Shown here piece by piece: positions 9,890 through 59,510 of a DNA stretch of 64,000 nt. The DNA lies in contig OZ024742.1 of NCBI GenBank assembly GCA_964016885.1, positions 204,228,001 through 204,292,000 of the forward strand, written 5' to 3'. The translations under genes were made by a program, and so were the position numbers. Under the pieces are notes generated by a model, which worked only from the letters and a program-made list of their open reading frames with translations, did no database searches and was not told the DNA's origin. Positions within the stretch are counted from its first letter, which is position 1; every line of letters starts with the position of its first letter. Source of the stretch: Eledone cirrhosa. Taxonomy: Eukaryota.

Positions 9890-12800
9890 GCGTTCTCATC
9901 AGATAAAATAGGGAGACATGATATGAAGCTTAAAAAACACTTGTGAATAGTGAAGTTTTAAATCAACATATTAAAAATAAATTAAGATTGACGTATGAGA
10001 TTGGGAAAAAGTGAGGGAGGTTGGAAAAAGTAAGGAAGAGATGAGAGTAAAGGATGGTGGCGTAGGAGTATAAGAAGGAAGGATGAGAGAGGAGGAGAGA
10101 TGGGTGATAGAGAGAGATAGCCTTTACAACTGAGAAAAAATATATATTGTCTCACAGAGAGAAATTAAAAAGCCGTTGGAAGATAATAGATAATTTAAAA
10201 GATTTTGAAATTAAAAGTTAATGAGGTTTATGCATGAAGAAAAAGGAATTAAGAATAGTATTAAATTAAGGTTTGTATATTAAAGGGTTTAATAATATGT
10301 GCGAGGAAAAGAATTTATTAATATGTATTATTAAAATAAAATATTAATGTTATTGAGGATATAATGTGAAAAAGAAGGAGAGAAATGAATGAGTTATGAA
10401 TTTAGAGGAATTAGTTAGGGTTTAAGTTTGTTTTTATGTAATGTAATATGTGTACGTAAATAGTTTGTTTAAAATGAGCGCGGAAGGAAAGAAGAAAAAA
10501 GAATGTTTAAGGAAGAAAATATCTAACCTCAAAAAGTATATATGTTTACGAAATATTTTCTAATGGTAATAATATAATATATTAAAAGAAATTAGTTAGG
10601 GTTTAAGTTTGTTTTTATGTATTGTAATATGTAAAAGTCAAATTAAGTAGTAGTTTAAAACGAGCATGAAAGGATGGAGAACATAAGAAAAATTTAAGGA
10701 AGAAAAATATCTAACGTCAAAAATTATGTTTACGAAGGACTTCTAACGGTAATACTATAATGTATTAAAAAAATAATTTTTATGGCCAATGATATGAGGA
10801 AAGATGGAAGAATGGATAATGTTGTGGTGAGCAATAATAAGAATTGAGAAGTAGTTGGGAAGAAAAAGTACAGATTAGAGGTTAGAAATTAAAAAGAAAA
10901 AAGGAAGAAAGGAAAATGATAAAGAGGAATGATATAGAATGAGTAAATTGTATTATATAATTTATAATATTGAAATAAGGTAAAAAGATGGGTATATTCG
11001 TAAAAGATATATAAGCCTTTGAGAAAAAGGATTTTAAGGTATTATAATATTAGCTGTATACTTTATGGAATATTCTGTGGAATTTATGCAAGCAGAGAGA
11101 AAATAAATCCGTGTGTCTATTTATTATAGAATTGAAATTAGATATAATGCTAAATTTCTCTGCTAGGCAGAGATTACATGTTCTGGATAGGGAGGAATTC
11201 AAGTAAGGAAAGGCAGAATAAACCTTCCTCCAAGAGATGTTATAGTTAATATTTTTGTCTTTCAAGCACCATATGAGTTCCGGGAGTGCCGTGTTAGTTC
11301 TTTTAAGTTGGTATCTAAAAGACGAATTGTGATTATAAAATCTAGCTTTGAAGGAAGTGGAGGTGGAAGCGAAATAGGTAAAGGAATTGGTATCAGGTAT
11401 AACCTTACATTCATAGACTAAGTTTTTATCAAGTTATTAAGAGGACATTTAGTTCTAACAGGGCAATTACAGTTACGATTAGAGAAATTAACAGAGTTAT
11501 TAACAAGTGACCTAGTGTTATTTATAGAAGGAATTGGATTGGAGAAGTTATTTACGATAGGAATAATAGTTTCCTGATTTAGATAGGTATTATGAACATT
11601 CAACGAAGTTACGTTTGACGTCGTATTTAAGTTTACAGAATCTAGCCTAGAGTTAACAATGACGTCGGGAGTACTACTGCTATTATTATGACGCTCGGTA
11701 TTGGAAAGATGTGATTTATTATTTAATATTTAATATTTTATTGTTGTGTTTAGAGATAATGTTAGAGATGTTGGAAGAGGTGGAATAAGAAAATGTTATT
11801 GTATGTTTGTTAAAGATTTTACTATAGATATGTGAGGGAGGGAAGCATTTATCTAAGGCCCTAAAGAATAGTTTAGGAATATTATTATTAATAGAAATAG
11901 AGAAAGGAGCATTATACCAGATTATATTTTTGTATCTAGGTATTTTATTAAAGTTATTGGAATGTTCATAATTAATTATTTTACTGTAAGACCTTCTAGG
12001 ATTGGTTTCTTTACTGTATTTAATTTTATCAGGATAACCGGCTTTAGAAAGCGCATTATTATAGTAATTGGCGTTAGCATGGAAGATATCTTTATTAGAG
12101 GATAGGTTTGAGATTTTTTTTCAAATATTACTGACTATAGCATTTTTAATGTTAGCGGGGTGGTTAGATTTAAAATTAACATAATTTAGATTCTCATTGT
12201 TTTTATGGTAAGGGTAATATAGGCCACTGTCAAGATTAAGGGATATATCCAAGAAGTTAGCTAGTTTGACGTTGTTATCAAATTCAATTTTAAGGTTATG
12301 TTGCTTAAAGAGATCACATATATTGTTCTTAATAATATTAAGGTTAACTAAGTTGTAGTTTAAGATAGTAAAAAGTCCATCGTCACGATAAATTCCACCG
12401 CAAAGTTGAGGAATTTTCCGATTTAAAGAATTCAAAATAAAAATACGAATCAAATCAGTCAATTGCGATGAATCGGAAGCACCCATTGTGATATCAAAGT
12501 TGTTGGAAATATCGGCTCTAGTCCAGTATTCACTGTTGAATTCTAAGATAGTTTTTTCTTGCGGTGAGAATGATGTAAAGTTCATCTGTGGTGATGTCAG
12601 AATATTTAAATGCGAAAGATAGAGCGTTGTTGAGGAGTGAAGGCGAAATAAAAGAATAGTAGCTGGCAATATCAAATTGAATAAATTTTTGTTTGTTTTT
12701 CTTATTCAGGTTGTTGAACCAGCCAATTACTTCAGATGTACCAAACCATAAATTTAAGTTAGAAATAGAACAATTAGAACGAACCTGTGGGATAATTCTA

Positions 12801-23346: not shown

Positions 23347-23504
23347 GAATAATCGAGTATCGAAATAGTAGAGTGGATAATAGGAACGAGTAGGACCCCG
23401 ACGGCTGAGCTCAAGCCGTTTCGACGGCTAATTCTGGACGGAATTAGCAGTCCAGAATTAGCCGTCGAAACGGCTTGAGCTCAGCCGTCGGGGTCCTACT
23501 CGTT

Positions 23505-23510
<6 letters not shown>
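23343..23510. mobile_element. Head-to-head fold-back insertion of the Naiad terminal repeat in (TA)n
   Basis: Arms about 23379-23439 and 23449-23510 match 34290-34352; spacer GGAATTAGC. Confidence 0.9.
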
Positions 23511-23595
<85 letters not shown>

Positions 23596-24139
23596 CTTTC
23601 TTTCTTTCTCTGACTCACTCTATCTTTTGATTACGAGGTTATTTCAATAAAATTATATACTAGCTCACTATATAGATATAGTACTTTATTACATACAAAA
23701 TATTCCGAAATGCTAATTTTAATTCAGAATTACAAAATAAACCCGAATATTTCAATGAATTCTTTAAAAGAAAAAGAAAGAAAATAAACTCAAGCGAAAA
23801 CAAACATGTCGGCCATTTTCTTTCAGATAATTTTGTTTTTTCTTTACGAAGTTTTTGAAAATTAAAATAGAAATTAATGGAAAAGATTGAGAAATATAAA
23901 TTAAGAATCGATAAAATGGTTCTTGTTCTAGCATTGTTCAACAATGAAGTGCACCTAGCAACTAATTCCGGGTATCTAAATATGTGTTTACGAGAGATGT
24001 GAACAGCAGAGCAGATGCAGTGCTAATCTACTGGATCTTGTACTTGTGTTGACGGTCACCTAAGATGGATCCAGTCAGGTGGAATCAGTGAATCCACAAC
24101 ATCGTCAACAGAGGCTGTCTTATATTACCGAAGTCTAAT

Positions 24140-26308
24140 ACAGATATTGTTAGCTAGACACCATTCTAATAGTAAATACAATATATGTGAGAATCAGATA
24201 TTGTTAGCCAGTCACCATTCTAACGGTAGATACCATATATGTGAGAATCAGATATTGTTAGCCAGTCACCATTCTAATGGTAGATGCCATATATGTGAGA
24301 ATCAGATATTGTTAGCCAGTCACCATTCTAACGGTAGATATTATATATGTGAGAAACATATATTGTTAGCTAGACACCATTCTAACAGTAGATATCATAT
24401 ATGTGAGAACCAGATATTGTTAGCCAGTCACCATTCTAACAGTAGATATCATATATGTGAGAACCAGATATTGTTAGCCAGTCACCATTCTAACGGTAGA
24501 TATCATATATGTGAGAACCAGATATTGTTAGCCAGTCACCATTCTAACAGTAGATACCATATATGTGAGAACCAGATATTGTTAGCCAGTCACCATTCTA
24601 ACAGTAGATATCATATATGTGAGAACCAGATATTGTTAGCCAGTCACCATTCTAACGGTAGATATCATATATGTGAGAACCAGATATTGTTAGCCAGTCA
24701 CCATTCTAACAGTAGATACCATATATGTGAGAACCAGATATTGTTAGCCAGTCACCATTCTAACAGTAGATACCATATATGTGAGAACCAGATATTGTTA
24801 GCCAGTCACCATTCTAACGGTAGATATCATATATGTGAGAACCAGATATTGTTAGCCAGTCACCATTCTAACGGTAGATATCATATATGTGAGAACCAGA
24901 TATTGTTAGCCAGTCACCATTCTAACGGTAGATACCATATATGTGAGAACCAGATATTGTTAGCCAGTCACCATTCTAACAGTAGATATCATATATGTGA
25001 GAACCAGATATTGTTAGCCAGTCACCATTCTAACAGTAGATATCATATATGTGAGAACCAGATATTGTTAGCCAGTCACCATTCTAACAGTAGATATCAT
25101 ATATGTGAGAACCAGATATTGTTAGCCAGTCACCATTCTAACAGTAGATACCATATATGTGAGAACCAGATATTGTTAGCCAGTCACCATTCTAACAGTA
25201 GATACCATATATGTGAGAACCAGATATTGTTAGCCAGTCACCATTCTAACAGTAGATACCATATATGTGAGAACCAGATATTGTTAGCCAGTCACCATTC
25301 TAACGGTAGATACCATATATGTGAGAACCAGATATTGTTAGCCAGTCACCATTCTAACGGTAGATACCATATATGTGAGAACCAGATATTGTTAGCCAGT
25401 CACCATTCTAACAGTAGATACCATATATGTGAGAACCAGATATTGTTAGCCAGTCACCATTCTAACAGTAGATACCATATATGTGAGAACCAGATATTGT
25501 TAGCCAGTCACCATTCTAACAGTAGATATCATATATGTGAGAACCAGATATTGTTAGCCAGTCACCATTCTAACGGTAGATACCATATATGTGAGAACCA
25601 GATATTGTTAGCCAGTCACCATTCTAACAGTAGATACCATATATGTGAGAACCAGATATTGTTAGCCAGTCACCATTCTAACAGTAGATACCATATATGT
25701 GAGAACCAGATATTGTTAGCCAGTCACCATTCTAACAGTAGATATCATATATGTGAGAACCAGATATTGTTAGCCAGTCACCATTCTAACGGTAGATACC
25801 ATATATGTGAGAACCAGATATTGTTAGCCAGTCACCATTCTAACGGTAGATATCATATATGTGAGAACCAGATATTGTTAGCCAGTCACCATTCTAACAG
25901 TAGATACCATATATGTGAGAACCAGATATTGTTAGCCAGTCACCATTCTAACAGTAGATATCATATATGTGAGAACCAGATATTGTTAGCCAGTCACCAT
26001 TCTAATGGTAGATACCATATATGTGAGAACCAGATATTGTTAGCCAGTCACCATTCTCACGGTAGATACCATATATGTGAGGACCAGATATTGTTAGCCA
26101 GTCACCATTCTAACGGTAGATACCATATATGTGAGGACCAGATATTGTTAGCCAGTCACCATTCTCACGGTAGATACCATATATGTGAGGACCAGATATT
26201 GTTAGCCAGTCACCATTCTAACAGTAGATATCATATATGTGAGAACCAGATATTGTTAGCCAGTCACCATTCTAACGGTAGATACCATATATGTGAGGAC
26301 CAGATATT
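24140..26308. repeat. Homogeneous 54-bp minisatellite, about 40 copies
   Basis: Unit CAGATATTGTTAGCCAGTCACCATTCTAACAGTAGATACCATATATGTGAGAAC. Confidence 0.97.
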
Positions 26309-26345
26309 TGTTCAAGATGCAATTTGATCATGCCAGTCCCTATCT

Positions 26346-32740: not shown

Positions 32741-34200
32741 CACATATACATGAATACACATACATTTAATTATATACATCAAACATATATATATATACAC
32801 ACTCACCCACTTGTTTACTTATTTATATACATTTTCACATATATACATTCATATGGTCGCTTTTAGACACATTCATTATAGCATATTCGCACCTATTCTC
32901 ACCAGCATATTTATCCATTATTAGTGTGATAATTTAAGGTTATTAATAGTACATATATATGCTGAGAAGAGATTGTTTTTATATTTTTCTACCAAGATTG
33001 AGGATTTGTACAGTTGGGAGGATGTCCCTCGTTTATGTAATATTCAGCTTGTAGTGGGAAAAAAGGGTTTTAGTTCGGTGACGGCAGAATAATGTTCGAT
33101 CAATTCTGTTATTAAGCAATTTCTTCTTGTGTGTGATTATGTAATAAATCTCAAGATTACATAATTTGCAGAAATTTTGGCTCCTGGAAAAGCTATGGGT
33201 TTTAGCTAATTTATCTCATTTTAGGGTAAACTTTTGATCGCTATCCCTGAGCATCCAAGCTTTTTCTGCTAAAGTTGTTACATTTCTTTGGCTCTGGTGT
33301 TTTATTGAGTAAGAATGCCTATATAATCGAGATTTAAACTATGTTGCCGTTGATCCCACGTAATACCACTCGTTGCCTCCGGATTCAATGGTACACTTAT
33401 AGATGATATTTTTTTCAAGGCAGTTATTGCCGAGGGGGCAATTGTCAGGATAGGTGCAGTTACAGTTGTGTACGTTGGTTTTGTAGTTAGGTTCACTCTG
33501 GAGTAGTATTGCGGACGAACTTAGGTGTGGTTTATTTATGTTCTGTAGTGTCTACTGGGTTTTTTTTGTGCTCTTTGTACTTAAGTTTTTAGTGTTTTTG
33601 TTTAACCTTCTAGTATTAATCTTTTTTATGTGTTGTTCAAGGTTTAACGCTGTAGAGTCTGACGGTCTTATAGTGGTAGGGTTTAGGATTTTGTGGTATT
33701 TGTGTGATGTAGGAAAATGTTTCTTAACTATTTTAAAGAAAAGTACTGGTAAATTTGTACTAATGGAACTATTGTATTCAGGGTTATACCATAAGTACTC
33801 TTTGCATCGCTTTCTATTAGTTTTGTTTGTTGGTTTATTGGTGTGTACACTATGGTAGTAAGTGTGGTTTGGTGTTGTGTTATTATTTCTACCTATGTGG
33901 GATTTATTTTGGGTGTTTTGATTGTTTTCATCTATATATTCTATTTTGTTGAGGTAGCCTGCTTTACTAAGGGCGTTATCGTAGTACTCGGCGTGTTCCT
34001 TAAATACTTGTATGTTAGAAGATAGACCCGAGATTCAAAGGGAAATATTTTTAGGGATAGATTTAATTATAGAGATGGGGTGGTTAGACCCAACATTCAC
34101 GTACTTGAGATTTTCATTCAATTTATGAAACGGTTTAATCAGACCAGAGTTTAAATTGAGTGTGACATCCAGGAAGTTAACTACTTTAAGGTTGTGTTCA
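31849..34200 (-). mobile_element. 5'-truncated Naiad-type PLE, degraded
   Basis: NFLDVTLNL, SNHP, CNCTYPDNCPLGNNC, CKLCNLE, CRHR; bounded by (TA)n at both ends. Confidence 0.88.
31996..32116 (-). ncRNA. Hammerhead with long stem II and one core substitution
   Basis: TTATT-CTAATGA-AATGGTAGTT..AACTGTTATT-GAAA-CACGTG-TC-AATAA at the 3' end of the PLE. Confidence 0.7.
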
Positions 34201-34212
34201 TATATATATATA

Positions 34213-36993
34213 TAACGAAGGAAATGTGGTAAGGAACCATATGAACCATAACGCACCAAAGTACTCAATACTTAGGGTAGTAGAGTGGGTAATAGGAACA
34301 AGTAAGACCCCGACGGCTGAGCTCAAGCCGTTTCGACGGCTAATTCTGGACTGAAGGAAAATTTATTCTGGTATTTAAATAGCCGAGCTTATCAAGAGGT
34401 AATTCCATATATGGTCAAAGAGACAATCACCAGGATTGGTCACATCACAAGTTAGTAGTAAATCGGTGATGGCAAATTGGTGGGGGAAGGGGTAGCTAAA
34501 CCTGCCGGTAGGAGAAAAAGGGAGAGGGGGTGGAGTAGACCCATTCATGCGTTGGTAGTGCTGGCTCCAGCTGGGCGTGAGGTCAAATGGATACTGGGGA
34601 GGGGGGGGGGGAATTCGAAACGGTAAGTAGAACAATGTAGGGTAAAACTATAAACAGTACTGAGAGAGAAAAAAAAAAAAAAAAAAAAGCAAAGTCTGGT
34701 TACTAAGACTTAAGTCTCTCGCTATTGCTAGGCTAAAGAAATACATAAATAAATAAATAAACAAATACGTGAATAAAAGAATAGATAAATAAATTAAAAA
34801 ATATATATAATGAAGAATAAAATACTAAAGAGACTGCCACGAAATAATAAAGGTTTCTACCCCAATCACAGTGCAAGAAAGTAAACTAGTACGAGAATAT
34901 AATTTAGGGTCCCGCAAAAAAATACTAGTGCTAACTCTAAGGGTACCGCCACGAAACAAAAAGTCTTATACAAGCTACATGAAAGATCGTACGAAGTAAA
35001 AGTAAAGAACGGAAAATTAATACAGAAACACCCCCCCCCACCCCCCACAAACAAAAAGGAAAAAGAAGAAAGAAATACTGGATAAACGAGAAATTAAAGC
35101 AAAGATGCCACTAAGAAATATAGAAGTCACGGAAAAAAGGACAGCGGTCGGAGGAGGGAGAAAATATCCGAAGTCTAACACCTCTGCTATAAAAAGCGGA
35201 GTCAGCCAAATCTATCATAGAATAGGGGAAGGGGTGGGGTGTTGAAGCTACAAGGGACCGAGGGGCTACCTCGGGTGGGCGAGAAAAAGACGACGACAAA
35301 GAAAAGGAACTGGGGTAGAAGGACTAGGGAGGGATGGGGGGGAAGAAGGAAATATAGAGGAAGCGATAAAAGAATGTAAAAGAAGATCTTACGTCTCCAT
35401 TGGCAAGCAGGGGTTACCCATTACAAAATAGGCAAGTGGGGTGTTATAGCCCTAGTCTACTCCCCAGCCCCCGGGTCATTTTGGGGTTTGAGGGCGAAGT
35501 AAGTCCTACGTAATCGGTGTTTACATGCAGTAACCAGTTCATCTTTCTTGTTTAGGAGTTGGTCCGTCGAAAACAACATTTGTAAAGTTTCCTCCGAGCA
35601 TAAATTGTACGGACGGCGTCCTCCCGTGTAAGAGTTGGCGCTGGACAGTAATTTCCAAGTGAGATCGTAGTTGATGTTGTTGTCCTTGAGGTCCCATATG
35701 TGGGCCGAAAGTGTAGTGGCGTGACGCCGGGCCGGGTTTCGGAAGGTATGTCTGTGTTGGTATAGCCGGGTCTTGAAGTCACATGCGGTTAATCCTATAT
35801 AAGCTTTGTTGGAAGTGTCCGTGCTCACGTTGCACTGGTAGATCACATTACGGTCTCTGCATCTGTTGTCGAGGGGGCAACTGGATCTATCAGGACAATT
35901 GCAACTCCTGGTCGGCTCTCCACTGCTATTTGGGTTGTTTCTTCCATCGGGGTTGAGTTTTTTGTTGTTGGAGGAGACGATGTTTTGTGCGAAGTTAGGT
36001 GTAGTGCTGTAAGAGAGTTTGATAGTATTTTTGTTAATTATGTTGTGGTAGCGGTGTTGTGGTGGGAAGTGTTTTTCAATGAGCCTAAAGAAAATTTTCC
36101 CGATGGGAGTTGTCACCTCGGCGTTGTGGGGAGGATTGAACCATGATACATTGCGTGAGCGGCGGTGTCGCCTGCTGGTTCCGCTAATGGGAGCTGGACA
36201 GTAGGATATTTCCTCCCGGAAACCACTCCGCTTGAGGGCCTGGTTGTAGTAAGGCGCATGTTCATCGAATATCTTCTCATTAGCTGACAAACGGGATATG
36301 CGGAGGGAGATGTTTTTGACCAGGTTGTTGGTGATGTTCCTAGGATGTTTTGACCGGCGGTGGATGTTGTGCAGGTTGTCGTTAGGTTTCCTGTATGGGT
36401 AGTACAGGTCATTATTGAGATCAAGGGTAACGTCCAGGAAATTAACTCGGGTCAGGGACGTTTGTAGGGTTATTTTAAATCCCCAGTCGCGGAAGAAGCT
36501 GATTAATTGTTTACGGACCCGATCTGTACTACTGGGGTTGTACCCTTTAAGGGTAAGGAGCCCATCATCACGGTACAATCCACCACCGAAAGCAGGAAAC
36601 ATATCGGTGAGTTTGGCTATAAGGAATAATCCTATAAGATCTGTGACCTCCGCCGAATCCGTCGCGCCCATGCTGACGTCGAAGGGTGAGTCGGGAGCTC
36701 TTTTTATCCATTTGGAGTTGTCAAAGAGTAAGACTGTCTTCCTGGCGTGGAGGATGATTTTTCTTTCCTGGTCGGTGATGGGCACAAGTGCTTCGGCGAA
36801 GTCCAAGGCGGCAGTAAGTAGCGGTAAGGTGATTGAAGCATAGTAGCTCTCTATGTCGAACTGGATAAATTTAGTGTCTCGTTTATCCTCCATATTGCTG
36901 AACCATGAGATAACTTCCTGGGTGTTGATCCATAGGCTAAGTCGGGCGTGTTGCTTGACTTTTGGTATCACGCGGTCTATGATTCTTTTGCTG
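34213..36993 (-). mobile_element. Young 5'-truncated Naiad-type PLE with ~1.2-kb 3' region
   Basis: Uninterrupted ORF with RT and GIY-YIG; both ends join (TA)n. Confidence 0.95.
34349..34439 (-). promoter_or_regulatory. Putative Pol II core promoter in PLE 3' repeat (CCAAT about -85, TATTTAAA -29, Inr TCAGTC with +1 at 34352)
   Basis: Canonical spacing; short dispersed copies at 23449 and 43633 begin exactly at AGTCCAG. Confidence 0.65.
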
Positions 36994-36996
36994 ATA
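35457..36996 (-). CDS. PLE reverse transcriptase + GIY-YIG endonuclease (N-terminally truncated)
   Basis: [63 protein letters not shown]. Confidence 0.93.
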
Positions 36997-37034: not shown

Positions 37035-37487
<453 letters not shown>

Positions 37488-37503: not shown

Positions 37504-39620
37504 AGCCCCTCCTGATGACTTTAAATTAAGACTCATAATAGCAGGCACCACATGTGAAACCCACCGCCTAAGCAACTTCCTAGATATTCTGCTTAAACCT
37601 TTCCTGAAACACATAAAAATCTTCATAAGGGACGACCTTGACTTGCTCAACCACCTCCCAACAATACTCAATAACGAACATACCCTACTAGTAACCTTTG
37701 ATGTCATCAATTTATATTCCAATATCCCACACAACCTAGGTATAGACGCAATACAATTCTGGCTTGAACATTTCCCTAGTGAACTCCCACAGCGCATCCA
37801 TAAATAATTTGTGTTGGGGGGACTCAAATTCATCTTGGAAAACAATTTCTTCGAATTCAATGCCAAATACTACAGACAGAAATCTGGGACTGCCATGGGC
37901 ACGAAAGTGGCCCCCTCATACGCCAACCTTATCATGGGATATTTGGAAACCATTCTCTACCGCAAAATTCTAGACAAATACGGCAACCGCTTCTACCAAC
38001 ACATAGAAAAGAACTGGAAGAGATATCTGGGCGCTCCTTCATCCTCTGGCATGAAAGTATAGACTGTTTGAGTTTAAAACCCTTCTGAATGAGGTCAACA
38101 CTAACTTACAATTCACAATGGATTACAGCCATGAACACCTCCCTTTCCTCGACATCCTCATCAAGAAAACAAGCAACAAAATAGAAACAGACATATACTA
38201 CAAACCCACAGACTCCAAACAATACCTTCCATTCAACTCGTGTCACCCTAGACACACCAAAATGGCAATTCCTTATAGCCTAGCCAGAAGGATCTGCACA
38301 ATAGTTTCAGATAAATACACATGCTACACACGACTAGAAGAATTAAAAAACACACTTATCAGCAGAAACTACTCACCAACCCTAATCACCAATGGATTCC
38401 AACGTGCCCTAAAACTAGACATCCAGGAATTCAGACACCCCAAACCCAGGAATGAACCGCAACAAAAAACTCTACCATACATCTCCACACACTACCTCCT
38501 CAACAATGAGGCATTCGACACTATCCTCCAGAACATTCCTTTACTAAAAAGAGACCCAAGAATGAACAAAATCTCTAAACACACAACATCATAAAGAGCA
38601 AAAAACAACCTAAATCCATAAAAACATCCTCACACAAGCCAAAATCCAACAAACCACACAAGAACCCTACAATAACAAAATTCGGAAGGCCCTACTGTGG
38701 CATATGCATAAATCTAATAGAAGGTTCAACATTCCATTTTAAACAACGACAGCGTTTCACAGTTAAACACAACTTTACATGTGCATCTGAAAACCTTATC
38801 TATGTTTTGACCTGCTCAGGTTGTCAAGAGCACTATATAGGACAGACAAAAAACAGCCTCCGTCAACGCATGACCGTCCATAAATCACAAATTAAAATAC
38901 AGGAATACAGAAACATTGCATTTAGTGAACATATCGCCAATTGTGTCCACAACCAACATACAAACTTTAAAATTTACCCCATTTACAAATTCATAGACAA
39001 CGATACTTCCATCCAACGTTCCAATAAGGAAACATATTTCATTAATAAATTCCAACCCCTACTTAATGCTCTAAAAATCGGACCAATCTAAAACTGCAAC
39101 GAACAATCAAACATTTGCAAGAGTTACCTCCTAATCTTACCTAATCCTTTTTCTTTAATAAATTAAATATCGTCCAGCAAGAATTGCTTCCCCCTACATA
39201 TTAACTCTCTAAAATGGGAAATCATATCAAACCTCAGTCCACCATTTGCCTCCATCATGGAATCATGGATCATCTAAGCACTCTTGCTATATAAACACAT
39301 TTTGATCTGCTTAACTTCAATGACTATGCTTGTAAATAATATTATTTTTTCTTACACATTGACTTTTTATGCTATACATTATGCACGTTTTTTTACTTTT
39401 TCTTTTTTCTTTTCACTTCATAAACCTTGTTTGTAAATAACATTATTCTTTTTGCACCTTCTGTTTATCATGTGCGACAGCACACTAATACATTTCACTA
39501 TCATTTGATAATGCATATCAATGCTGAAACCGGTAATAGAGAATAATTAAATATATAAATAGATAAATAAATGCCATTGTTAAATAACCACAAAGTAAAA
39601 CATTTCGTTTTAATCATTTT
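37504..39620 (+). mobile_element. Neptune-type Penelope-like element, 5'-truncated and frameshifted
   Basis: FDVINLYSNIPH, GTAMGTKVAPSYANL, LPFLDI, YYKPTDSKQYL..SCHP, Cys linker, LIYVLTCSGCQEHYIGQT; starts at (TA)n. Confidence 0.92.
39498..39539 (+). ncRNA. Degenerate hammerhead at Neptune 3' end
   Basis: TTGATAA (from CTGATGA)-TGCA..TGCT-GAAA-CCGG-TA-ATAG. Confidence 0.45.
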
Positions 39621-40560: not shown

Positions 40561-40563
<3 letters not shown>

Positions 40564-40700
40564 CAAAGAAAGTGTGGTAAGGGACCAGGTGGACCATAAC
40601 GCACCAGAGTGCTCAATACTTAGGGTAGTAGAGTGGGTAATAGGAAAAGAGACAGGACCCCGTCGGCGGTCAACTGTCAGGGTCCTGACTCAAGCGACAA
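40561..40700 (-). mobile_element. Copy of the Naiad terminal repeat
   Basis: Matches 34213-34315; joins (TA)n. Confidence 0.85.
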
Positions 40701-40828: not shown

Positions 40829-41451
40829 ATATATATATATATATTCTGATGAAGGACTAGCGTTTAGACCCTCTTCCTGCTATTTCAATCGTTAAACTAA
40901 TATATTCCTTCCATATACTGTACCATTTGTTTTGTTATTTCTGTTACCTTTTACATTTTCAATCACATAAATTTTTTCAATCACATAAATTTTTTCAATC
41001 ACATAAATTCTTTCAATCACATAAACTTTTTCTAAATTTTTTCAAATTTTTTCAAAAAATTTTTCAATCACAAATTTTTTCAATCACATATTTTTATTTG
41101 TTTGACCCGAATTGCTTGGTCGTTTTTATGGCGGATGATTGTTTAACCATCGTCTCAGTGTGTTTGGCCTTTAACGTATGTTGTAGCTCTGGTTCATCTG
41201 AATCATTGAGCGCTTGCCACACATCTCGGAAGTTGTTTTTCGTTAATTCCTAATCCGAAATACGATTCTCGCTAATTTATATTTATATATATATATATAT
41301 TTCGTTTCTGAATTTGTTTAGCAAGATTCTTTATCTGAAATCATGTGTTGAAACCGATATTGTTATACTTTGGGAGGGTCATGTTGCCAAGAAACAAAAT
41401 GGCGTAGTACAGAACAAAGGAGAGGCATAGAAACAAAGAAAGGAATCCCCA

Positions 41452-41494
41452 GTCACTGAAGAGGTCACAGAGTGTGTGACGAAAGAACTATGAC
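41452..41494 (+). ncRNA. Minimal hammerhead inside a ~40-bp inverted repeat (41357-41396 / 41601-41643)
   Basis: GTCA-CTGAAGA-GGTCAC..GTGAC-GAAA-GAAC-TA-TGAC. Confidence 0.65.
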
Positions 41495-41635
41495 AATATA
41501 TAAACAACTATCTGGTTGTGGAACCAACCAACCAACTAGAAATTTATAAATTTATTATAAATTTATTATGATAAATTGAAGTGAAAGCGACTGGTGCGTG
41601 TGTTTCTTATTGGCAACATGACCCTCCCAAAGTAT

Positions 41636-43404: not shown

Positions 43405-43688
43405 AATAAATGTTCTAAACTAAAATGTGATCGTTTTAACACTTTGTATCTCGGCTCTGTAAAACACTTGAAAATTTGCATTGAGCCTTTTGTCATACCG
43501 GTAACTGGCTAGTACTTAGTACTACCCTCCATATTTATAGCTGTATTAAACATAAATAAATATAAATATTCTTATTACTATATATATATATATAACGAAG
43601 GAAATGTGGTAAGGAACCAGGTGGACCATAACAGTCCAGAATTAGCCGTCGAAACGGCTTGAGCTCAGCCGTCGGAGTCCTACTCGTT

Positions 43689-43775
<87 letters not shown>

Positions 43776-47459: not shown

Positions 47460-48211
47460 TATATATACACAGAACATACATATATATAAAATATATACAT
47501 ACAAAAATATAAAAAATATATATATACATAGAATACACACACACACACAAAATATATACACACGTAAAACATACATATATATTAAAAAAATACACACACA
47601 CATACACACATATATATATAAAATAGATACATACAGATACGCACACATATATAAAATACGCATACATACACATAAAATACACTTATATATACACATGATA
47701 CATATATATATAAAATTATGTTCAATAAAACATTGTTTAGATGACTCCTAACCAGTAGAGGATCCGGTGGACCATCCACCATAGGGACCGCAAACCATGG
47801 GTGGTTGTTGTTGTCCATTGGTCATTGTTGGTACGGAGTGTAGGGGGGGGGGGCTTGTGGGAGGCCGTAACCGGGGTTTATCCATATAGCTTGAGGAAAG
47901 TTCCCGTCCTTAGGTGTCTGCAGGCACCGAATAGGTCCGCCCTAATGTTTAATAGCTTGGTTCCGCCATGAAGAACCTCGAGTGTCTCACTAAGACAGAG
48001 CTTGCAAATACCAGACCCGCCTCTGTCTGGGGGAACCTTTCTAACCACGTACCAGACCAGAGAGTGCGGGGTCTTTTCAAGTTTGAGCTTCCAGATCAAT
48101 TCAGAAAGGGTCGTACATTTCCTCTTATCTATTCTGTTAAAGGAATGGCGATGATTATACCACCGACCTTTGAAGCTCGTCGCTGTGGATCCTATGTAGT
48201 GGCGCTCCGAG

Positions 48212-48213
<2 letters not shown>
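46845..48213 (-). mobile_element. Short Naiad-type PLE 3' fragment (GIY-YIG C-terminus, UTR, HHR-like motif at 46845-46892)
   Basis: HYIGSTATSFKGRWYNHRHSF..IWKLK..CKLCLSET..CRH; CGGATGA-GGTCATAGCCA..TGGCTATCATC-GAAA-TATATA. Confidence 0.85.
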
Positions 48214-48244
<31 letters not shown>

Positions 48245-49990
48245 TGTGTGTGTATAAAATATATTTTTGATTTCGACTAGAATGCTAATTGGAACAGTTT
48301 AAACCTCTCAACATTTCGATGAATAGCTATATGATCAGTGATAAATTGATTGATTGATTTCTAAGAGGAGCTAAGGTTCATATTAACATTCATTCTGCAT
48401 CAAGATATCAATTTTCACATCTCGATCACGTGATGATAACTATGACAGATTGCTGTTTGTTTGTAACGATAAGCATTTTGTTGTTGTTGTTTAGTCCCAG
48501 GTCGACCCTAACCGAGTTGATGTATGATCAAAAGCATTCCAGGCGTGACCATGCCCTCAGAGAAATTTATTTAACACAACATCCAATGTTTTTGTTTGTT
48601 CTGGTTTTTTTTTTTTCAATTTTTAAGACAGTACAATGTATTTTCAGGGAGATTTGGTTTCTATATCTAGCACATGCAGTAACCATATGGAGGTCTCCTT
48701 TGTGGCTCTGTGGCAAGTTATTTTTCCTTGTAAACATCATTGTAGACCTACTTGAGAGTGAGTTCTTGTATGTGTAGGATCTTTATATACGACAGACAGA
48801 CATTAATTAATATATGATAGACAGGCTAATCAATATATGAAAGACAGGCTAATTAATATATGATAGACAGACTAATCAATATATGAAAAACAGGCTAATT
48901 AATATGCAATAGACAGGCTACTGTCACAATATGTTCAATATTCAAGTCGATAATCTGACTGGCTAAACAACAACAGCAGCAACAACAACGACAACGGCAA
49001 CAACAGCAGCAACAACAACGACAACGACGACAGCAACGACGACGACAACAACAGTAATAAGGACAACACCAATGTATCACGTGATGTTTGTTACATTTGA
49101 GATAAATAGATAGATAGAAGCATAACTACATCTTAAAGAAGGCGCCTCAGATTCATTCACCTTCAGTGATGTTATCAGACGGTGTCCAATGTTCCTTGGG
49201 TATTGCGACCCTTAACCGTAACACCCTTTCATTTATGGGTCTGCAATGGTGACGAAACTACTGCCCATCTTTTCATCATGGCTTCCAGTTTATCTCCTCT
49301 CTCCTGCTCTATAATCAATAAGAGGTCCTTTCCGCTGTCTCTCTTTTCTTGTACAATTTCTGTTTATCAAATTTCACGCACAGGAATTTGATCAAGCAAG
49401 ACCTACTCTAGAAGACGCTTTGCCCAAGTTGCCTCGCAGTATACCAGTCATGAAAGGGTTTTGATATCAATTTTTCCTCCCTACCCTATAAATTCACACC
49501 CTTTCTTCTGCGCTTTCTACTACGATCAATAAAATAATTGCCAATAATGTCCTATGTTCGATTAAATCGATTACATGCCCCTCCTAAAATTGGTAAACTT
49601 TTTCTAAAGGGAAAAATCAATACGATTACTATTGTATAGTTTTCTTTCTATCTGAGAATTTCATTGAAACTGAGGTCGTCTTTTATATACTCTGTGTATG
49701 TCACATATGCAAATTAAAATTAATTTAGTAAATCATATCTGAATCATATCTATAATATGAGTATTGAAATCTTCTTTGATGTGACGTAAAATGTATGATA
49801 CAGTCTATTTTAGGTGTTAAACAAATAGAGGCAGTATTATATATGAGTAAATGATGTTGGCTGAACTGAGAAACAGTTTCTAGATTCTCCTTTGATAAAA
49901 CAGACAGTGTGTTAATGTTAAATGTACAAAGGAAAGTCTGTATACATCACCCCTGCTGGATAGACTGACACAGTCTCGAGTGAGTGCCGC

Positions 49991-55090
<5,100 letters not shown>

Positions 55091-55113: not shown

Positions 55114-56575
55114 CAGTTGCATTTATCTTGCTTTATGTTCATACGAGTTATCACCAAGTCACAACCAGTGACCTCAAGAGACAACAAGGTCCGCCATATT
55201 CAAGGAAGAACATACATACTCACACATGCATCTTTAGTGTTTAGACTTGTGATGTACTTATATTGACAGAATCTTCCTTAGTATATGGGCAGTTCCCATT
55301 AGTACTATCTTTTGTATTTCTCCTATACGCGGGTTTCCTGGGATCTGCGATAAGTAATCATTAGACCCCTTCGGTATCATTCCCAGAGCGCCTACAACCA
55401 CTGGTATTGTTTTAGTTCTCAATTTCCACATTTTTCCAATTTCTATCTCCAGGTCCTTATACTTGCTCAATTTTTCAAATGTTTTTATAGATACATTCTT
55501 GTCTATTGGAACAGACATATCAATTAGCAGGCATACCCTCTTTTTAAAGTCCTTCAATATTATATCAGGTCTATTTGCATCTATTTTTCGGTCTGTTTGG
55601 ATGCTAAAGTTCCACAAGATTGAGATGTGATCTTTTTCAAGTATGGGAGGTGGTTGATGCTCCCACCAATTCTTTTGATGGGGCAGGTCAAAATGCTTAC
55701 ACATTATCCAATGTATGTATTGTGCAGCTCTGTCATGTTTAGGTATTCGGTTGGAGCTATAGGACTGCACATTGAAATTATATGGTCAATGGTCTCTGGT
55801 TGTTTTTTGCATACACGGCATAATGGGCTGCATCCATTTTTTATTATGTTGGCTTGGTAATTTTTTGTTGGCAGACACTGATCTTGTGCTGATATAATCA
55901 GTCCTTCAGTCTCCGATTTCAGTCCAGAGGATGCCAACCACTGATGGGTTAAAGTTTTGTCAACATCAGGATTGTTAGCTCGCTCTGGGTATTTTCCATA
56001 CAGAGGCTTTTCTTGCCATTTCTTAGCCAGTTTCTGTAGCAGTTCTTTCTTTGCAGTTAATTTTACCTGCTTTGCTTTTTCTGTGTTTTCCATTTCAGCA
56101 GTAAATGGGACTTCTGAAATTTGTAGTCCACTACTGTATCTTTGTGCATCTTTTGTAATGGAATATGATTTTTTGATGCTTTCGTGTTTCAAAACGAGTT
56201 TGATCATCCAATCATGTGATTTCCTTAGATATGTAGATAATCCAATTGTTGCAGTTTTCAACGCAATGTCTAACTGGATTAACCCACGTCCTCCTTCTTT
56301 CCTAGGGAGATATATTATATCTATATCTGCCTTAGGGTGATGCATTCTGTGCATGGTTAAGAATTTTCGAATTTTTGTATCGAGCCTACGGATCTCTGTG
56401 CTTGACCAGTTGATGACATTGTAACTGTAGGTTACTACTGGTATGGCAAGCGTGTTTATGGCATCGATCCTATTCCTTGCATTCAATTCCGTTCTTAAGA
56501 TTGCTCTTACTCTGCGGTAACATTCCTTCCTTATCCTTTCCCTCATTGTCGAGTGCTTGATTCCGTCTCCTTCAC
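55114..56575 (-). mobile_element. 5'-truncated Dong-like (R4 clade) LINE
   Basis: YLPRKEGGRGL, CRVC..H..C, RPDIILKD..LIDMSVP; one frameshift; 3' end joins (TAA)n. Confidence 0.93.
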
Positions 56576-56641
56576 AAACAAGGGAAGATAATAAAGAAGT
56601 CCTTGAGGCTTTCTACACTGCCATGTACTACCCATCAAATA

Positions 56642-56681
<40 letters not shown>

Positions 56682-56682
<1 letters not shown>

Positions 56683-59076
56683 CTTGAATCTCAGTCATTG
56701 ATGTTGGTTAACTGGAAAGTCCGTTGGATTGAATATCAAGCCACTACCTGCAGCCTCAGATATTCAGGACGTATCGGAGGGTTCTTGCCGTTCCAAGCAA
56801 GCATGCCTTTTGAAGCGTTCCAAAAAGCGTGAAGGGGCCGATTTTCTTTAACCATCCCTGGAAACCTTTGGAGATAGTCCCCAGTGCGCCTATGACAATC
56901 GGGATCACTTTGACTTCATGGCAGTTCCAAATCCTTTTCACCTCCCACTTTAGGTCCTGGTATCGGTTAATTTTCTCCCTCTCCTTCTCTTGCACTCTCG
57001 TGTCGAACGGGCAGGCCACATCCACAATCAGGCACGATCTTTTTTCTTTGTCCACAACCACCAGGTCAGGTCTATTGTGTTCCAGTTTTTTGTCCGTCTG
57101 TATCCTAAAATCCCACAGCACCTTCACCTGACTGTTCTCCATCACCGCCTCTGGCCTATGCTCATACCATTTCTCAGAATGTGGTAGATTGTTTACTTTG
57201 CACAGGTGCCAGTGGATCACCCTGCCCGTCACATCGTGTCTCCAGCCCTTATAGTGGGTCTGGGCTAGGTGTTTACACTCGGACACAATGTGAGCCACAG
57301 TCTCCTCTCTCTCTCCACAGATCCTGCACAGTGGGCTAGCCTCTTCCTTGTAGATATGGTGCTTCAACCACTTCGTTTTGAGGGCCTGCTCCTGCGCAGC
57401 CATTAGCATTCCTTCTGTAGCCTTTTTGAGGTCTCCTCTTCTCAACCAGTTCCATGTCTGTGGATCTCTAAATTCAGTTTTCTCAAAGAAGGTACTATGA
57501 AGGGATTTTCCCTTAAGGCTGCTCTTCCTCCTTGATGTTATTTCCTCCTTGGGTATCCCCTGGCCTACTGTCCCCTCCTTCAGTACAGCTCTGAGCATTG
57601 GCTCCTTACTATAGGTCACGTATTTGTATAGGTTGTTTTTCTCCATCTGAACACAGTCCTCTATGCTGATAAGACCTCTTCCACCCTCAGATCTCCTTAG
57701 GTAGAGTCTATCGACATCACTCCTCTTGTGGAACATGTTGTAGATAGTCAATAGCTTCCTAGTCTTCCTATCCATTTCTTTTTGTTCAGCAACATTCCAT
57801 CTCAGAATTCCCGCACTGTACCTAATAATAGACACAGCTCGGGAATTTACTGCGCTTATGGCATTTCTGCTGTTCAGATGTGACTTCAATACGCTCCTTA
57901 CTCTCCGAATGTATTCAGTTCTTAACAATTCCTTCATTTTTTTGTTCTTTATGCCATCAGCCTCCAGAACGCCCAAATACTTGTATCCTTCCTCAGAGTC
58001 AATTTCCTTTATCATCTCACCTGTTGGTATCTGGATCCCGTTACTTCTGCTCAACCTACCCCTCCTCATCACAATGACTCCACATTTACCAATACCAAAC
58101 TGCATACATATATCACTGCTGAAAATACGGACAGTGTCAACAAGCACATCCAACTCCTTCTCACTTTTCCCGAAGAGCTTAAGATCGTCCATGAAGAGGA
58201 GGTGATTGATGGTAAGCTCTCCCCTTCCCAACTTGTATCCTGCTCTCACTTTTCGCAGCATAATGGTCAAGGGCATCAGGGCAAGGACAAACAACAGAGG
58301 GGACAGGCTATCTCCCTGGAAGATACCTCTCTTGATCTTCACGCTTCCCAAGGATACTCCAGTTGATGTCAACTCTGTCTCCCAGGACCCCATACTCCTG
58401 CCCAGCAACTGTCTGATGTTATCTGCCACCCTGAAGATCTCCAGGCTTTTGGTGATCCAGGAATGAGGCACCATGTCAAATGCCTTTCTGTAGTCTATCC
58501 ATCCCATGGCAAGATCAGTGTGTCTCCTCCTGCAATTCCCCATTACCATCTTATCAATAAGCAACTGGTCCTTTGTACCACGTGACTTCTTTCGGCATCC
58601 TTTCTGTTCGTCCGGCAACAAGTTGTTTGTGTGGAGGTGATGGTAGATTTCCTCAGACACAATGCTCGTCAACAGTTTCCACATTACGGGCAGACATGTG
58701 ATAGGTCTATAGTTGGTAACATCATTACCCTTGATTCGGTCTTTCATTATCAGAACTGTGGTACCTTTTGTCAACCACTCTGGCACCTCACCCGACACCA
58801 AGCAGTCATTGAACATGGCCGTCAGCTTCGGGTGGAGGGATGTTAAATGTCTAATCCAATACCCCTGCACACCATCTGGGCCTGGTGATTTCCAGTTGGT
58901 TAGTTTTTTGGCTTGCCCCTTAAGAGTTTCAACTGTGATACTCAAATCAGTCTGTTGCTGTGCCTGCTCACCGATCTCCCTCTGTACTGTCTCAATCCAC
59001 CCTGCCTGGGCATTGTGTCTAGCATCCTGCTCCCATATTCCTCTCCAGAATGTTTTAGCTTGTTCCGCCCCAGGGA
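56682..59076 (-). mobile_element. Young 5'-truncated Dong-like (R4 clade) LINE, uninterrupted ORF 56756-59076
   Basis: NYRPITCL, DYRKAFDMVPH, GIFQGDSLSP, LFMDDLK, CRIC..H..C, RPDLVV..DVACP; (TAA)n on both sides. Confidence 0.96.
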
Positions 59077-59125
<49 letters not shown>

Positions 59126-59280
59126 ATAACAATATTCGTGTATGTATATATGTGGGAGTAAAGTGAGTTTGCAGGGTCGTTGGAGAGCAAGATGGAATGC
59201 TTTGCGGTATATGTTCCGACTCCCTGTACCGCTGCCTACCCTTTTTTCAAGATCAATGAACATAGTAGCATTGCAGAGAG

Positions 59281-59320
<40 letters not shown>

Positions 59321-59325
<5 letters not shown>

Positions 59326-59510
59326 AAAAAGTATGACCCCGACGACAGAGCTCAAGCCATTTCGACGGCTATTTCTAGACATAGCTGTCGAAACGGCTTG
59401 AGCTCTCCCTCGGGGTCATACTTTTTCCTATTACTCACTCTACTACCCTAAGTATTGAGTACTGTGGTGCGTTATCGTCCATCTGGTTCCTTACCACAAA
59501 TCCTTCGTTA
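59321..59510. mobile_element. Head-to-head fold-back insertion of the Naiad terminal repeat
   Basis: Antisense arm TAGGAAAAAG..TTCTAGAC followed by a sense arm running to CCTTCGTTA. Confidence 0.88.

What the first reader, a model, noticed from the sequence alone, without database searches (positions are those of the whole stretch)
34213..34439. Naiad 3' repeat appears to use a Pol II promoter rather than a hammerhead, and its short RNA seems to be mobilised from the +1
Seen: the youngest PLE (intact ORF 35457-36996) shows no canonical CTGANGA..GAAA motif in its 3' region, unlike the other four PLEs here. Its sense strand instead has CCAAT (34435-34439), TATTTAAA (34381-34374) and TCAGTC, with the Inr A at 34352, 29 nt after the TATA and about 140 nt before the element end. 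Dispersed short copies begin at exactly this AGTCCAGAATT (23449, 43633) or turn within about 8 nt of it (59370 area). Established: PLE pseudo-LTRs usually carry hammerheads that define RNA ends. Inference: here a TATA/Inr start defines the 5' end of a ~140-nt structured RNA (AGCCGT-CGAA-ACGGCT hairpin) that the PLE RT mobilises as a non-autonomous unit.
Basis: partly seen in the sequence, partly recalled or inferred. Interest (0 to 1): 0.78.

Follow-up and report, generated by a model that had tools for sequence, protein, structure and literature searches.

The report
Retrotransposon start site inside its hammerhead
This is the end repeat of a Penelope-like jumping gene in which a variant hammerhead ribozyme fold overlaps the likely transcription start, and thousands of tiny genomic copies stop at that start, many with an extra G that likely records the RNA cap, so they likely show how these elements copy themselves.

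Summary
The motifs are real, and short copies do stop at AGTCCAG: 118 of 160 arms end within -4..+8 of 34352, none between -5 and -60. An extra G often precedes the A (80 G to 20 A), as expected from a capped Pol II start. Three claims fail. The element is Hydra-clade, not Naiad. The window ORF lacks its first ~208 codons. A hammerhead is present: a type I, U3-A8 variant at 34400-34307 with compensatory changes in stem II, and the start site lies inside its loop II. TATA and CCAAT are absent from a sister family whose copies stop at the same initiator. In tandem copies this +1 lies 231 nt before the ATG, so it is the element's own mRNA start. Most short copies (59 of 90) are head-to-head pairs ending at two fixed sites (+61, +140), best read as two target-primed cDNAs that ran off the capped 5' end. 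A separate 140-nt RNA is not needed, though not excluded. No RNA data were available; cleavage is untested. New variant of known PLE biology, with a useful genomic record of mechanism.

The parts
35457..36995 (-). 5'-truncated ORF of a Hydra-clade Penelope-like element: RT core and thumb, CxCx5C linker, C-terminal GIY-YIG-like endonuclease; equals residues ~209-719 of the full protein
34353..35456 (-). 3' UTR and upstream part of the pseudo-LTR
34435..34439 (-). CCAAT (second copy 34476-34480); present in subfamilies A and C, not seen in family E
34307..34400 (-). Type I hammerhead motif, U3-A8 variant: stem I 34400-34396 with 34311-34307; core TTGATAA 34395-34389; stem II 34388-34380 with 34343-34335; GAAA 34334-34331; stem III 34331-34326 with 34318-34313, loop holding the palindrome GAGCTC; predicted cut after GUC, between 34312 and 34311 (+41/+42)
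   Evidence: activity untested
34374..34381 (-). TATA-like TATTTAAA at -29, overlapping stem II and loop II; varies to TATTCAAA/TATTCATA and is absent in family E
34349..34356 (-). Initiator-like element in hammerhead loop II; inferred capped start at A34352 (+1), with a likely second start near -4
34292..34352 (-). +1 to +61: the short arm; its 3' end (…CCTAT) is the inferred inner reverse-transcription start site
34213..34291 (-). 79-nt 'tail'; its 3' end (…GTTAT) at +140 is the inferred outer reverse-transcription start site, joined to (TA)n
23366..23509 (.). Head-to-head short insertion: + arm 23449-23509 = +1..+61; - arm 23366-23443 starts near +2 and is cut short at about +75
43593..43693 (.). 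Head-to-head short insertion: + arm 43633-43693 = +1..+61; - arm = last 40 nt of the tail only
59321..59510 (.). Head-to-head short insertion of an older subfamily (D type): short arm from about +2, tail arm from about +9
40561..40690 (-). Short copy of the divergent sister family E

Best explanation
This is the pseudo-LTR of a Hydra-clade Penelope-like retrotransposon, holding a variant (U3-A8) hammerhead fold with the element's likely capped transcription start inside its loop II, and the thousands of short genomic copies that stop there are likely cDNAs primed at two fixed internal sites that ran off the 5' end of that RNA. Steps: (1) shown: tandem units place +1 231 nt upstream of the ATG of a 719-aa RT-endonuclease ORF. 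(2) inferred: Pol II starts at the initiator (+1, sometimes -4), giving a capped RNA that lacks the 5' half of the hammerhead and so cannot fold it; only read-through RNA entering the next repeat holds the whole ribozyme. (3) shown: copies end at +61 and +140, both after TAT and joined to (TA)n; inferred: the endonuclease cuts both strands of a (TA)n target and the RT primes at these two sites. (4) inferred: when priming is in the first repeat of the RNA, the RT reaches the cap after 61 or 140 nt, often adds a C opposite it (read as G before +1), and the two cDNA ends are trimmed and joined head to head; priming in the second repeat of a read-through RNA gives the rare long, variably truncated copies. 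(5) inferred, weak: the hammerhead cuts a minority of read-through RNAs at +42, which would explain a small class of insertions whose two arms both start there.
For: Wall at +1; same step in depth and loose ends at the equivalents of +1 and -4 in independent contig runs. Extra G: 80 G to 20 A in the first 100 of 2,630 arms with a purine at -1 (counted by hand; 45 G remain after removing 35 that the opposite arm could supply) against 14 G to 32 A at other 5' ends; Fisher p = 2e-8 and 9e-5; hand-picked examples with (TA)n-G-+1 and with G on both arms. Extra G marks the cap in full-length L1 insertions (PMC11702581, passage). +1 to ATG = 231 nt. 59 of 90 copies have an inverted arm ending at +61, and in 7 of 59 the tail arm starts downstream of +61, so it cannot be a fold-back copy of the short arm. 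Two internal RT start sites, extension of both strands and the tail are shown in vitro for another PLE (PMC11167929). Hammerhead: 87% of cells paired, three stem II pairs with changes on both sides across 30 copies; position 7 varies (T/G/A) while U3-A8 holds in 76 of the first 100 of 5,132 A-D matches and 81 of the first 100 of 287 E matches; U3-A8 is a known PLE variant (PMC4209133) and active in vitro in other contexts (PMC3088659).
Against: No RNA evidence: the start and the cap are read from DNA copies only. The G control is small (46 ends), came from other loci than the test set, and in my own loci alone the excess was not significant (7 G to 4 A, p = 0.08). Ends are spread over about 12 nt, and calls at -1..-4 are inflated by chance matches to a T-rich template. 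Covariation rests on few events between related families. One successful subfamily has a C3-A8 mismatch (22 of 100) and a few have U3-G8, which argues against strict catalytic constraint; in the window copy and subfamily C the rival hairpin is predicted to beat the hammerhead fold. The +42 class has no neighbouring-position control and could be an RT stop at the foot of stem III. Both arms nearly always share a subfamily (43 of 45 typed pairs), which also fits fold-back copying.
Confidence: 0.72

Rival explanations
1. Same capped start, but the main templates are short non-coding RNAs from solo 3' repeats (or from the short copies themselves, through an internal promoter) that run into (TA)n and are mobilised in trans.
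For: Exact (TA)n-G-140 nt-(TA)n copies exist; over 5,000 repeats keep the upstream region; the D. virilis Penelope promoter is internal and its 3' pseudo-LTR can drive transcription (PMC2377424, passages); an RNA running into UA repeats would give the same +140 end.
Against: Junctions are varied, as expected of fresh insertions; every short-copy type seen (A-E) has a counterpart with upstream sequence; the anole PLE needed RNA beyond its start sites (PMC11167929), and here that sequence exists only in tandem units; the 140-nt RNA is not unusually structured (z = +1.1).
Confidence: 0.18
2. The wall at +1 is not a transcription start but an RT stall, a fold-back hot spot, a 3' splice site or another processing site in read-through RNA.
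For: The site also reads as a pyrimidine tract plus AG; some turns do fall on palindromes and on the AGCCGT-CGAA-ACGGCT hairpin.
Against: Ends include the AG, so not a splice junction; +1 lies in a predicted loop, not at the foot of a stem; copies with no inverted arm also stop there; the extra G is unexplained by a stall; no Rfam ribozyme was found there and no hammerhead geometry cuts at -1/+1 (scan).
Confidence: 0.07
3. The hammerhead-like fold is real but no longer catalytic; it is kept for another role such as RT binding or promoter spacing (this concerns step 5 only and is compatible with the rest of the best explanation).
For: C3-A8 and U3-G8 cores in amplified subfamilies; 37-nt loop II; long copies run through the cut site intact; cleavage was dispensable for insertion in the anole PLE; only 2 of 90 copies end at +42/+43.
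Against: All core positions, G10.1-C11.1, A15.1-U16.1, GUC and the palindromic loop III are kept across families A-E while loop II diverges; 470 arms break at +41/+42 genome-wide and about 13 of the 100 listed have both arms starting at +42 with one A or T between.
Confidence: 0.35

Closest known systems
Hydra clade of C-terminal EN+ Penelope-like elements (Craig et al. 2021, PMC8557442)
   Same: RT then GIY-YIG-like EN, RWR (RWK in the paper), DKT, CxCx5C linker, CxxC and CxH round the conserved E and N, (TA)n targets, partial tandems, inverted 5' copies, tail.
   Different: Unit is 3.54 kb (most described are under 3 kb); tail is 79 nt (30-40 described for PLEs); the hammerhead is U3-A8 with a 37-nt loop II, whereas all Hydra rows of the paper's file S2 have CTGANGA cores and loops of 3-10 nt.
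Poseidon PAc of the green anole (Frangieh et al. 2024, PMC11167929)
   Same: Two internal RT start sites that bound the tail; AT-rich targets; both strands extended; hammerhead in the pseudo-LTR, dispensable for insertion.
   Different: Here both start sites lie in the 5' UTR and end in TAT, matching the target by 3-4 nt; PAc starts inside the ORF without homology. The paper's main text gives no transcription start relative to the hammerhead.
U3-A8 minimal hammerheads of Schistosoma Cercyon PLEs (Cervera and de la Pena 2014, PMC4209133)
   Same: Type I, U3-A8, short stem I, long stem II, palindromic loop III.
   Different: Here stem III is 5-6 bp and loop II carries the start site.
Penelope of D. 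virilis and Pen2a_Av of A. vaga (PMC2377424, PMC3846280)
   Same: Promoter and start in the pseudo-LTR; Pen2a_Av has a putative TATA and initiator; head-to-head inverted repeats.
   Different: The A. vaga paper favoured self-priming on an antisense template; the extra G at the sense +1 here points to a capped sense template. No intron was identified here.
Non-LTR retrozymes (bioRxiv 2026.07.22.740005)
   Same: Short PLE-derived repeats related to pseudo-LTRs.
   Different: Retrozymes are tandem units with whole hammerheads; these copies are head-to-head, carry only the 3' half of the ribozyme and start at an initiator.

Membership tests
Naiad PLE | GIY-YIG endonuclease N-terminal to RT | tested here: not met
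   YRDD at 348, YIGLT at 606 of 719 aa; full ORF starts with the RT N-terminal region
Naiad PLE | DKA motif | tested here: not met
   DKT at 117
Hydra PLE | C-terminal endonuclease, single ORF | tested here: met
   Pfam itself gave no hit
Hydra PLE | RWK and DKT motifs | tested here: met
   RWR at 37 (relatives have RWK/RWR), DKT at 117; both are missing from the truncated window copy
Hydra PLE | CxCX5C linker; no CCHH; CxxC and CxH round E and N | tested here: met
   CNCPDRSIC at 572, CNLC at 670, CKH at 698; definitions
Hydra PLE | (TA)n insertion preference | tested here: met
Hydra PLE | Canonical hammerhead and length under 3 kb (general traits in the paper, not the protein definition) | tested here: not met
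   variant hammerhead, 3.54-kb unit; hence filed as a variant
Hydra PLE | Groups with named Hydra proteins in an RT tree | not tested
   no named Hydra protein was held; top relatives are unnamed, 38-54% identical
Type I hammerhead ribozyme | Core (3-8 pair, U4 G5 A6, A9, G12 A13 A14, A15.1-U16.1, H17) | tested here: met
   U3-A8 variant in the window copy; 3-8 paired in 26 of 30 aligned copies; C3-A8 mismatch in subfamily C
Type I hammerhead ribozyme | Three stems round the core, G10.1-C11.1 | tested here: met
   Rfam models did not detect it
Type I hammerhead ribozyme | Self-cleavage after H17 | not testable with these tools
   only an indirect, uncontrolled hint from arms starting at +42
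Pol II core promoter | Initiator at the start | tested here: met
   YAGTY context kept in A-E; consensus YYANWYY is recalled, not from a call
Pol II core promoter | Conserved TATA at about -30 | tested here: inconclusive
   present in A and B, weakened in C, absent in E
Pol II core promoter | Capped RNA starting at +1 | tested here: inconclusive
   extra G in DNA copies; no RNA run was listed
Non-LTR retrozyme | Tandem units each with a whole hammerhead | tested here: not met
   short copies are single or head-to-head and lack the 5' core half

The most novel reading that the evidence does not exclude
The start site is built into the hammerhead as a switch: the capped mRNA cannot form the ribozyme, only read-through RNA can, and it does cut in vivo. 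The tens of thousands of tiny head-to-head insertions are then a genomic record of a capped sense template, of priming at two sites on opposite target strands, and of in vivo hammerhead cleavage, which together would answer what PLE hammerheads do and how head-to-head repeats arise.
Probability: 0.3. Interest if true: 0.78.

Novelty: new variant of a known kind. Interest (0 to 1): 0.55.

Why it matters
How Penelope-like elements make their inverted repeats, which strand is the template, and what their hammerheads do are open questions in the papers read. This family leaves over 20,000 short insertions whose ends map the likely RNA start, a likely cap, two RT start sites and perhaps the ribozyme cut, all testable with CAGE, a cleavage assay and an in vitro insertion assay. 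It also shows that 'no CTGANGA' does not mean 'no hammerhead', which bears on PLE clades reported to lack one.

Tried and rejected
Rfam scan of the window: only microsatellite artefacts, no ribozyme. Unconstrained fold of 34410-34290: z = -0.04. Pfam on the PLE ORFs: no hit for this family. No RNA holder listed; this is not evidence on expression. A second lay of contigs on 34250-34338 did not list a loose end at 34311 among the rows shown, 213 rows hidden: uninformative. The '1 TGA' flag on many ORF hits suggested a selenoprotein, but translation of fetched copies showed no shared in-frame TGA. One search used a misregistered structure string and is discarded; one search is the corrected one. 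A 9-bp pairing between +68..+76 and +157..+165 is possible but weak (probability 0.11-0.91 in 7 copies). No AATAAA in the subfamily B 3' region checked, so the mRNA 3' end is unknown. A splice-acceptor reading and an alternative hammerhead cutting at +1 were rejected. Earlier findings look-up returned nothing. Lunse et al. 2017 on PLE hammerhead variants was not held, so C3-A8 activity could not be checked.

Full report
Observation. I number from A34352 = +1; the element end 34213 is +140. The window lies in a 3.0-Gb genome in which the family is very abundant: 23,805 exact matches of a 28-mer and 22,312 of the 3'-terminal 24-mer.

The element. The window ORF has RT first and a GIY-YIG-like domain last. 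In tandem copies the +140 end runs on into about 90 more bases of 5' UTR and an ATG 231 nt after +1. Uninterrupted ORFs of 717-719 codons were seen in L182, L185, L195 and L199, and tandem spacing is about 3.54 kb. The protein has RWR, DKT, CxCx5C, CxxC and CxH motifs, which match the Hydra clade definition (PMC8557442 section 11) and not Naiad. The window copy starts at residue ~209 after a (TA)n run, so it is truncated. No tree with named Hydra proteins was made.

Where copies end. I took 90 of the first 100 listed 3'-end matches (all from the first 27 Mb of contig C1; one was skipped and the last nine not fetched). 53 of 90 end at 34343-34368, 32 are shorter and scattered, 5 are longer. Counting every arm that holds +42..+61 in those loci, 118 of 160 end at -4..+8, 32 at +11..+42, none at -5..-60, and 10 go further. 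Genome-wide, 4,592 of 18,307 exact matches that begin at +1 extend 6 nt upstream; sequence variation lowers the longer count somewhat. Contigs from public runs of unknown kind show the same depth step and loose ends at the equivalents of +1 and -4 (one study, possibly not independent).

Cap signature. Among the first 100 of 2,630 arms with a purine just before +1, 80 have G and 20 have A (hand count). Removing 28 G that the opposite arm or a duplication can supply and 7 ambiguous ones leaves 45. At other 5' ends where G and A are both free the ratio is 14 to 32; p = 2e-8 and 9e-5. In my own loci alone the excess was 7 to 4, p = 0.08. Ten hand-picked loci show (TA)n-G or -GG before +1, or G on both arms. 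An extra G is read as the cap in full-length L1 insertions (PMC11702581, passage). This is indirect; no RNA run was listed.

Architecture of short copies. 59 of 90 carry an inverted arm ending at +61; 53 of the 59 have at least one arm reaching +8 or beyond; 7 have a tail arm that starts downstream of +61 and so cannot have been copied from the short arm. The search looked only for arms holding the +61 end. Both fixed ends follow TAT and abut (TA)n. This fits two internal RT start sites bounding a tail, shown in vitro for the anole PLE with both target strands extended (PMC11167929, abstract and main text). Inverted truncated copies and tails are known PLE features (PMC8557442, passages).

The hammerhead. 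A scan allowing U3-A8 finds a type I motif at 34400-34307 with the cut predicted at 34312/34311. U3-A8 is reported in Schistosoma PLEs (PMC4209133, results and discussion) and as an active covariation (PMC3088659, section 8). Subfamilies differ at the free position 7. A divergent family E, found from the window copy at 40561-40690, keeps core, stems, GUC and the GAGCTC palindrome while loop II is unrelated. These rest on few evolutionary events. Against strict constraint: 22 of the first 100 of 5,132 matches have C3-A8 and 2 have U3-G8, and the hairpin, which would hide GAA, is predicted to win in the window copy and in subfamily C, whereas the hammerhead fold is favoured in B and most E copies. 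Rfam missed the motif.

Promoter. Family E copies show neither the TATA nor CCAAT in the ~70 nt read upstream of the core, yet 15 of 45 arms end at -2..+2 of the same initiator, 6 at -3..-13, 3 beyond -30 and 21 downstream (a second set of 44 arms shows a weaker pile). So the initiator position is the shared feature. Promoters in PLE pseudo-LTRs are known: internal and TATA-less in D. virilis (PMC2377424, passages), putative TATA plus initiator in A. vaga (PMC3846280, passages).

Does the ribozyme cut? 2 of 90 copies end at +42/+43; 5 of 160 arms fall in the +42 bin, which is an edge bin. Genome-wide 470 arms break at +41/+42, and about 13 of the 100 listed have both arms starting at +42 with one A or T between (hand count; ten viewed). 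Many others sit on a CCCCGGGG palindrome and may be microhomology joins. I had no search left for neighbouring positions, and an RT stop at the foot of stem III would look alike. Inconclusive.

Mechanism. Most likely the mRNA starts, capped, in loop II and lacks half the ribozyme; RT priming at +61 and +140 of that first repeat yields the tiny head-to-head copies; priming in the next repeat of read-through RNA yields long copies, and only that RNA can fold the hammerhead. A separate short RNA from solo repeats remains possible. Every short-copy type seen has a longer counterpart, but no genome-wide tree was made.

What is in print. Searches of the held library listed no paper whose title, abstract start or the passages I read place a PLE start site inside the hammerhead or report cap-type G on short PLE copies. 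Hydra rows in file S2 of PMC8557442 all have canonical cores (part 2 of 59 read). bioRxiv 2026.07.22.740005 was seen as part 1 and passages (supplements closed); PMC6765202 as passages. Lunse et al. 2017 was not held and may list such variants. Initiator and TATA consensus and spacing are recalled.

Verdict. The parts are known PLE biology; the nesting and the genomic record are new variants. Interest 0.55.

Noticed in passing
window 33552-34200 (-): Fragment of a different Hydra-like PLE ORF directly beyond the (TA)n run that ends the young element; similar fragments at 11050-12705 (-) and 47878-48276 (-).
   Followed up: no
window 9902 (-), 14067 (+), 60007 (-), 60361 (+): A family with TATTTTAT-CTGATGA cores; the two near 60 kb form an inverted pair.
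   Followed up: no
window 41449-41495 (+): Canonical minimal hammerhead (CTGAAGA core, 6-bp stem II), about 2.4 kb downstream of the PLE ORF fragments at 38055-39091 that carry a Pfam GIY-YIG hit.
   Followed up: partly
window 5643 (-) and 5867 (+): Inverted pair of CTGATGA-core repeats of another family.
   Followed up: no
window 24027-26327 (+): 766-codon open frame made of a near-perfect tandem repeat of about 19 codons (57 nt).
   Followed up: no
window 37255-37400 (+): Repeat that looks like a tRNA-derived SINE by eye (recalled resemblance); ARAGORN found no tRNA in the window.
   Followed up: no
window 51423-54855 (+) and 55258-59368 (-): Non-LTR retrotransposon ORFs (endonuclease and RT frames) of other superfamilies.
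   Followed up: no
L181, L184, L185 (tandem arrays, period about 3.54 kb): Subfamily B forms head-to-tail arrays of near-identical units, some sharing the same premature stop.
   Followed up: partly
L040, L044, L126: T-runs directly before +1, which could be untemplated A added to cDNA ends.
   Followed up: no
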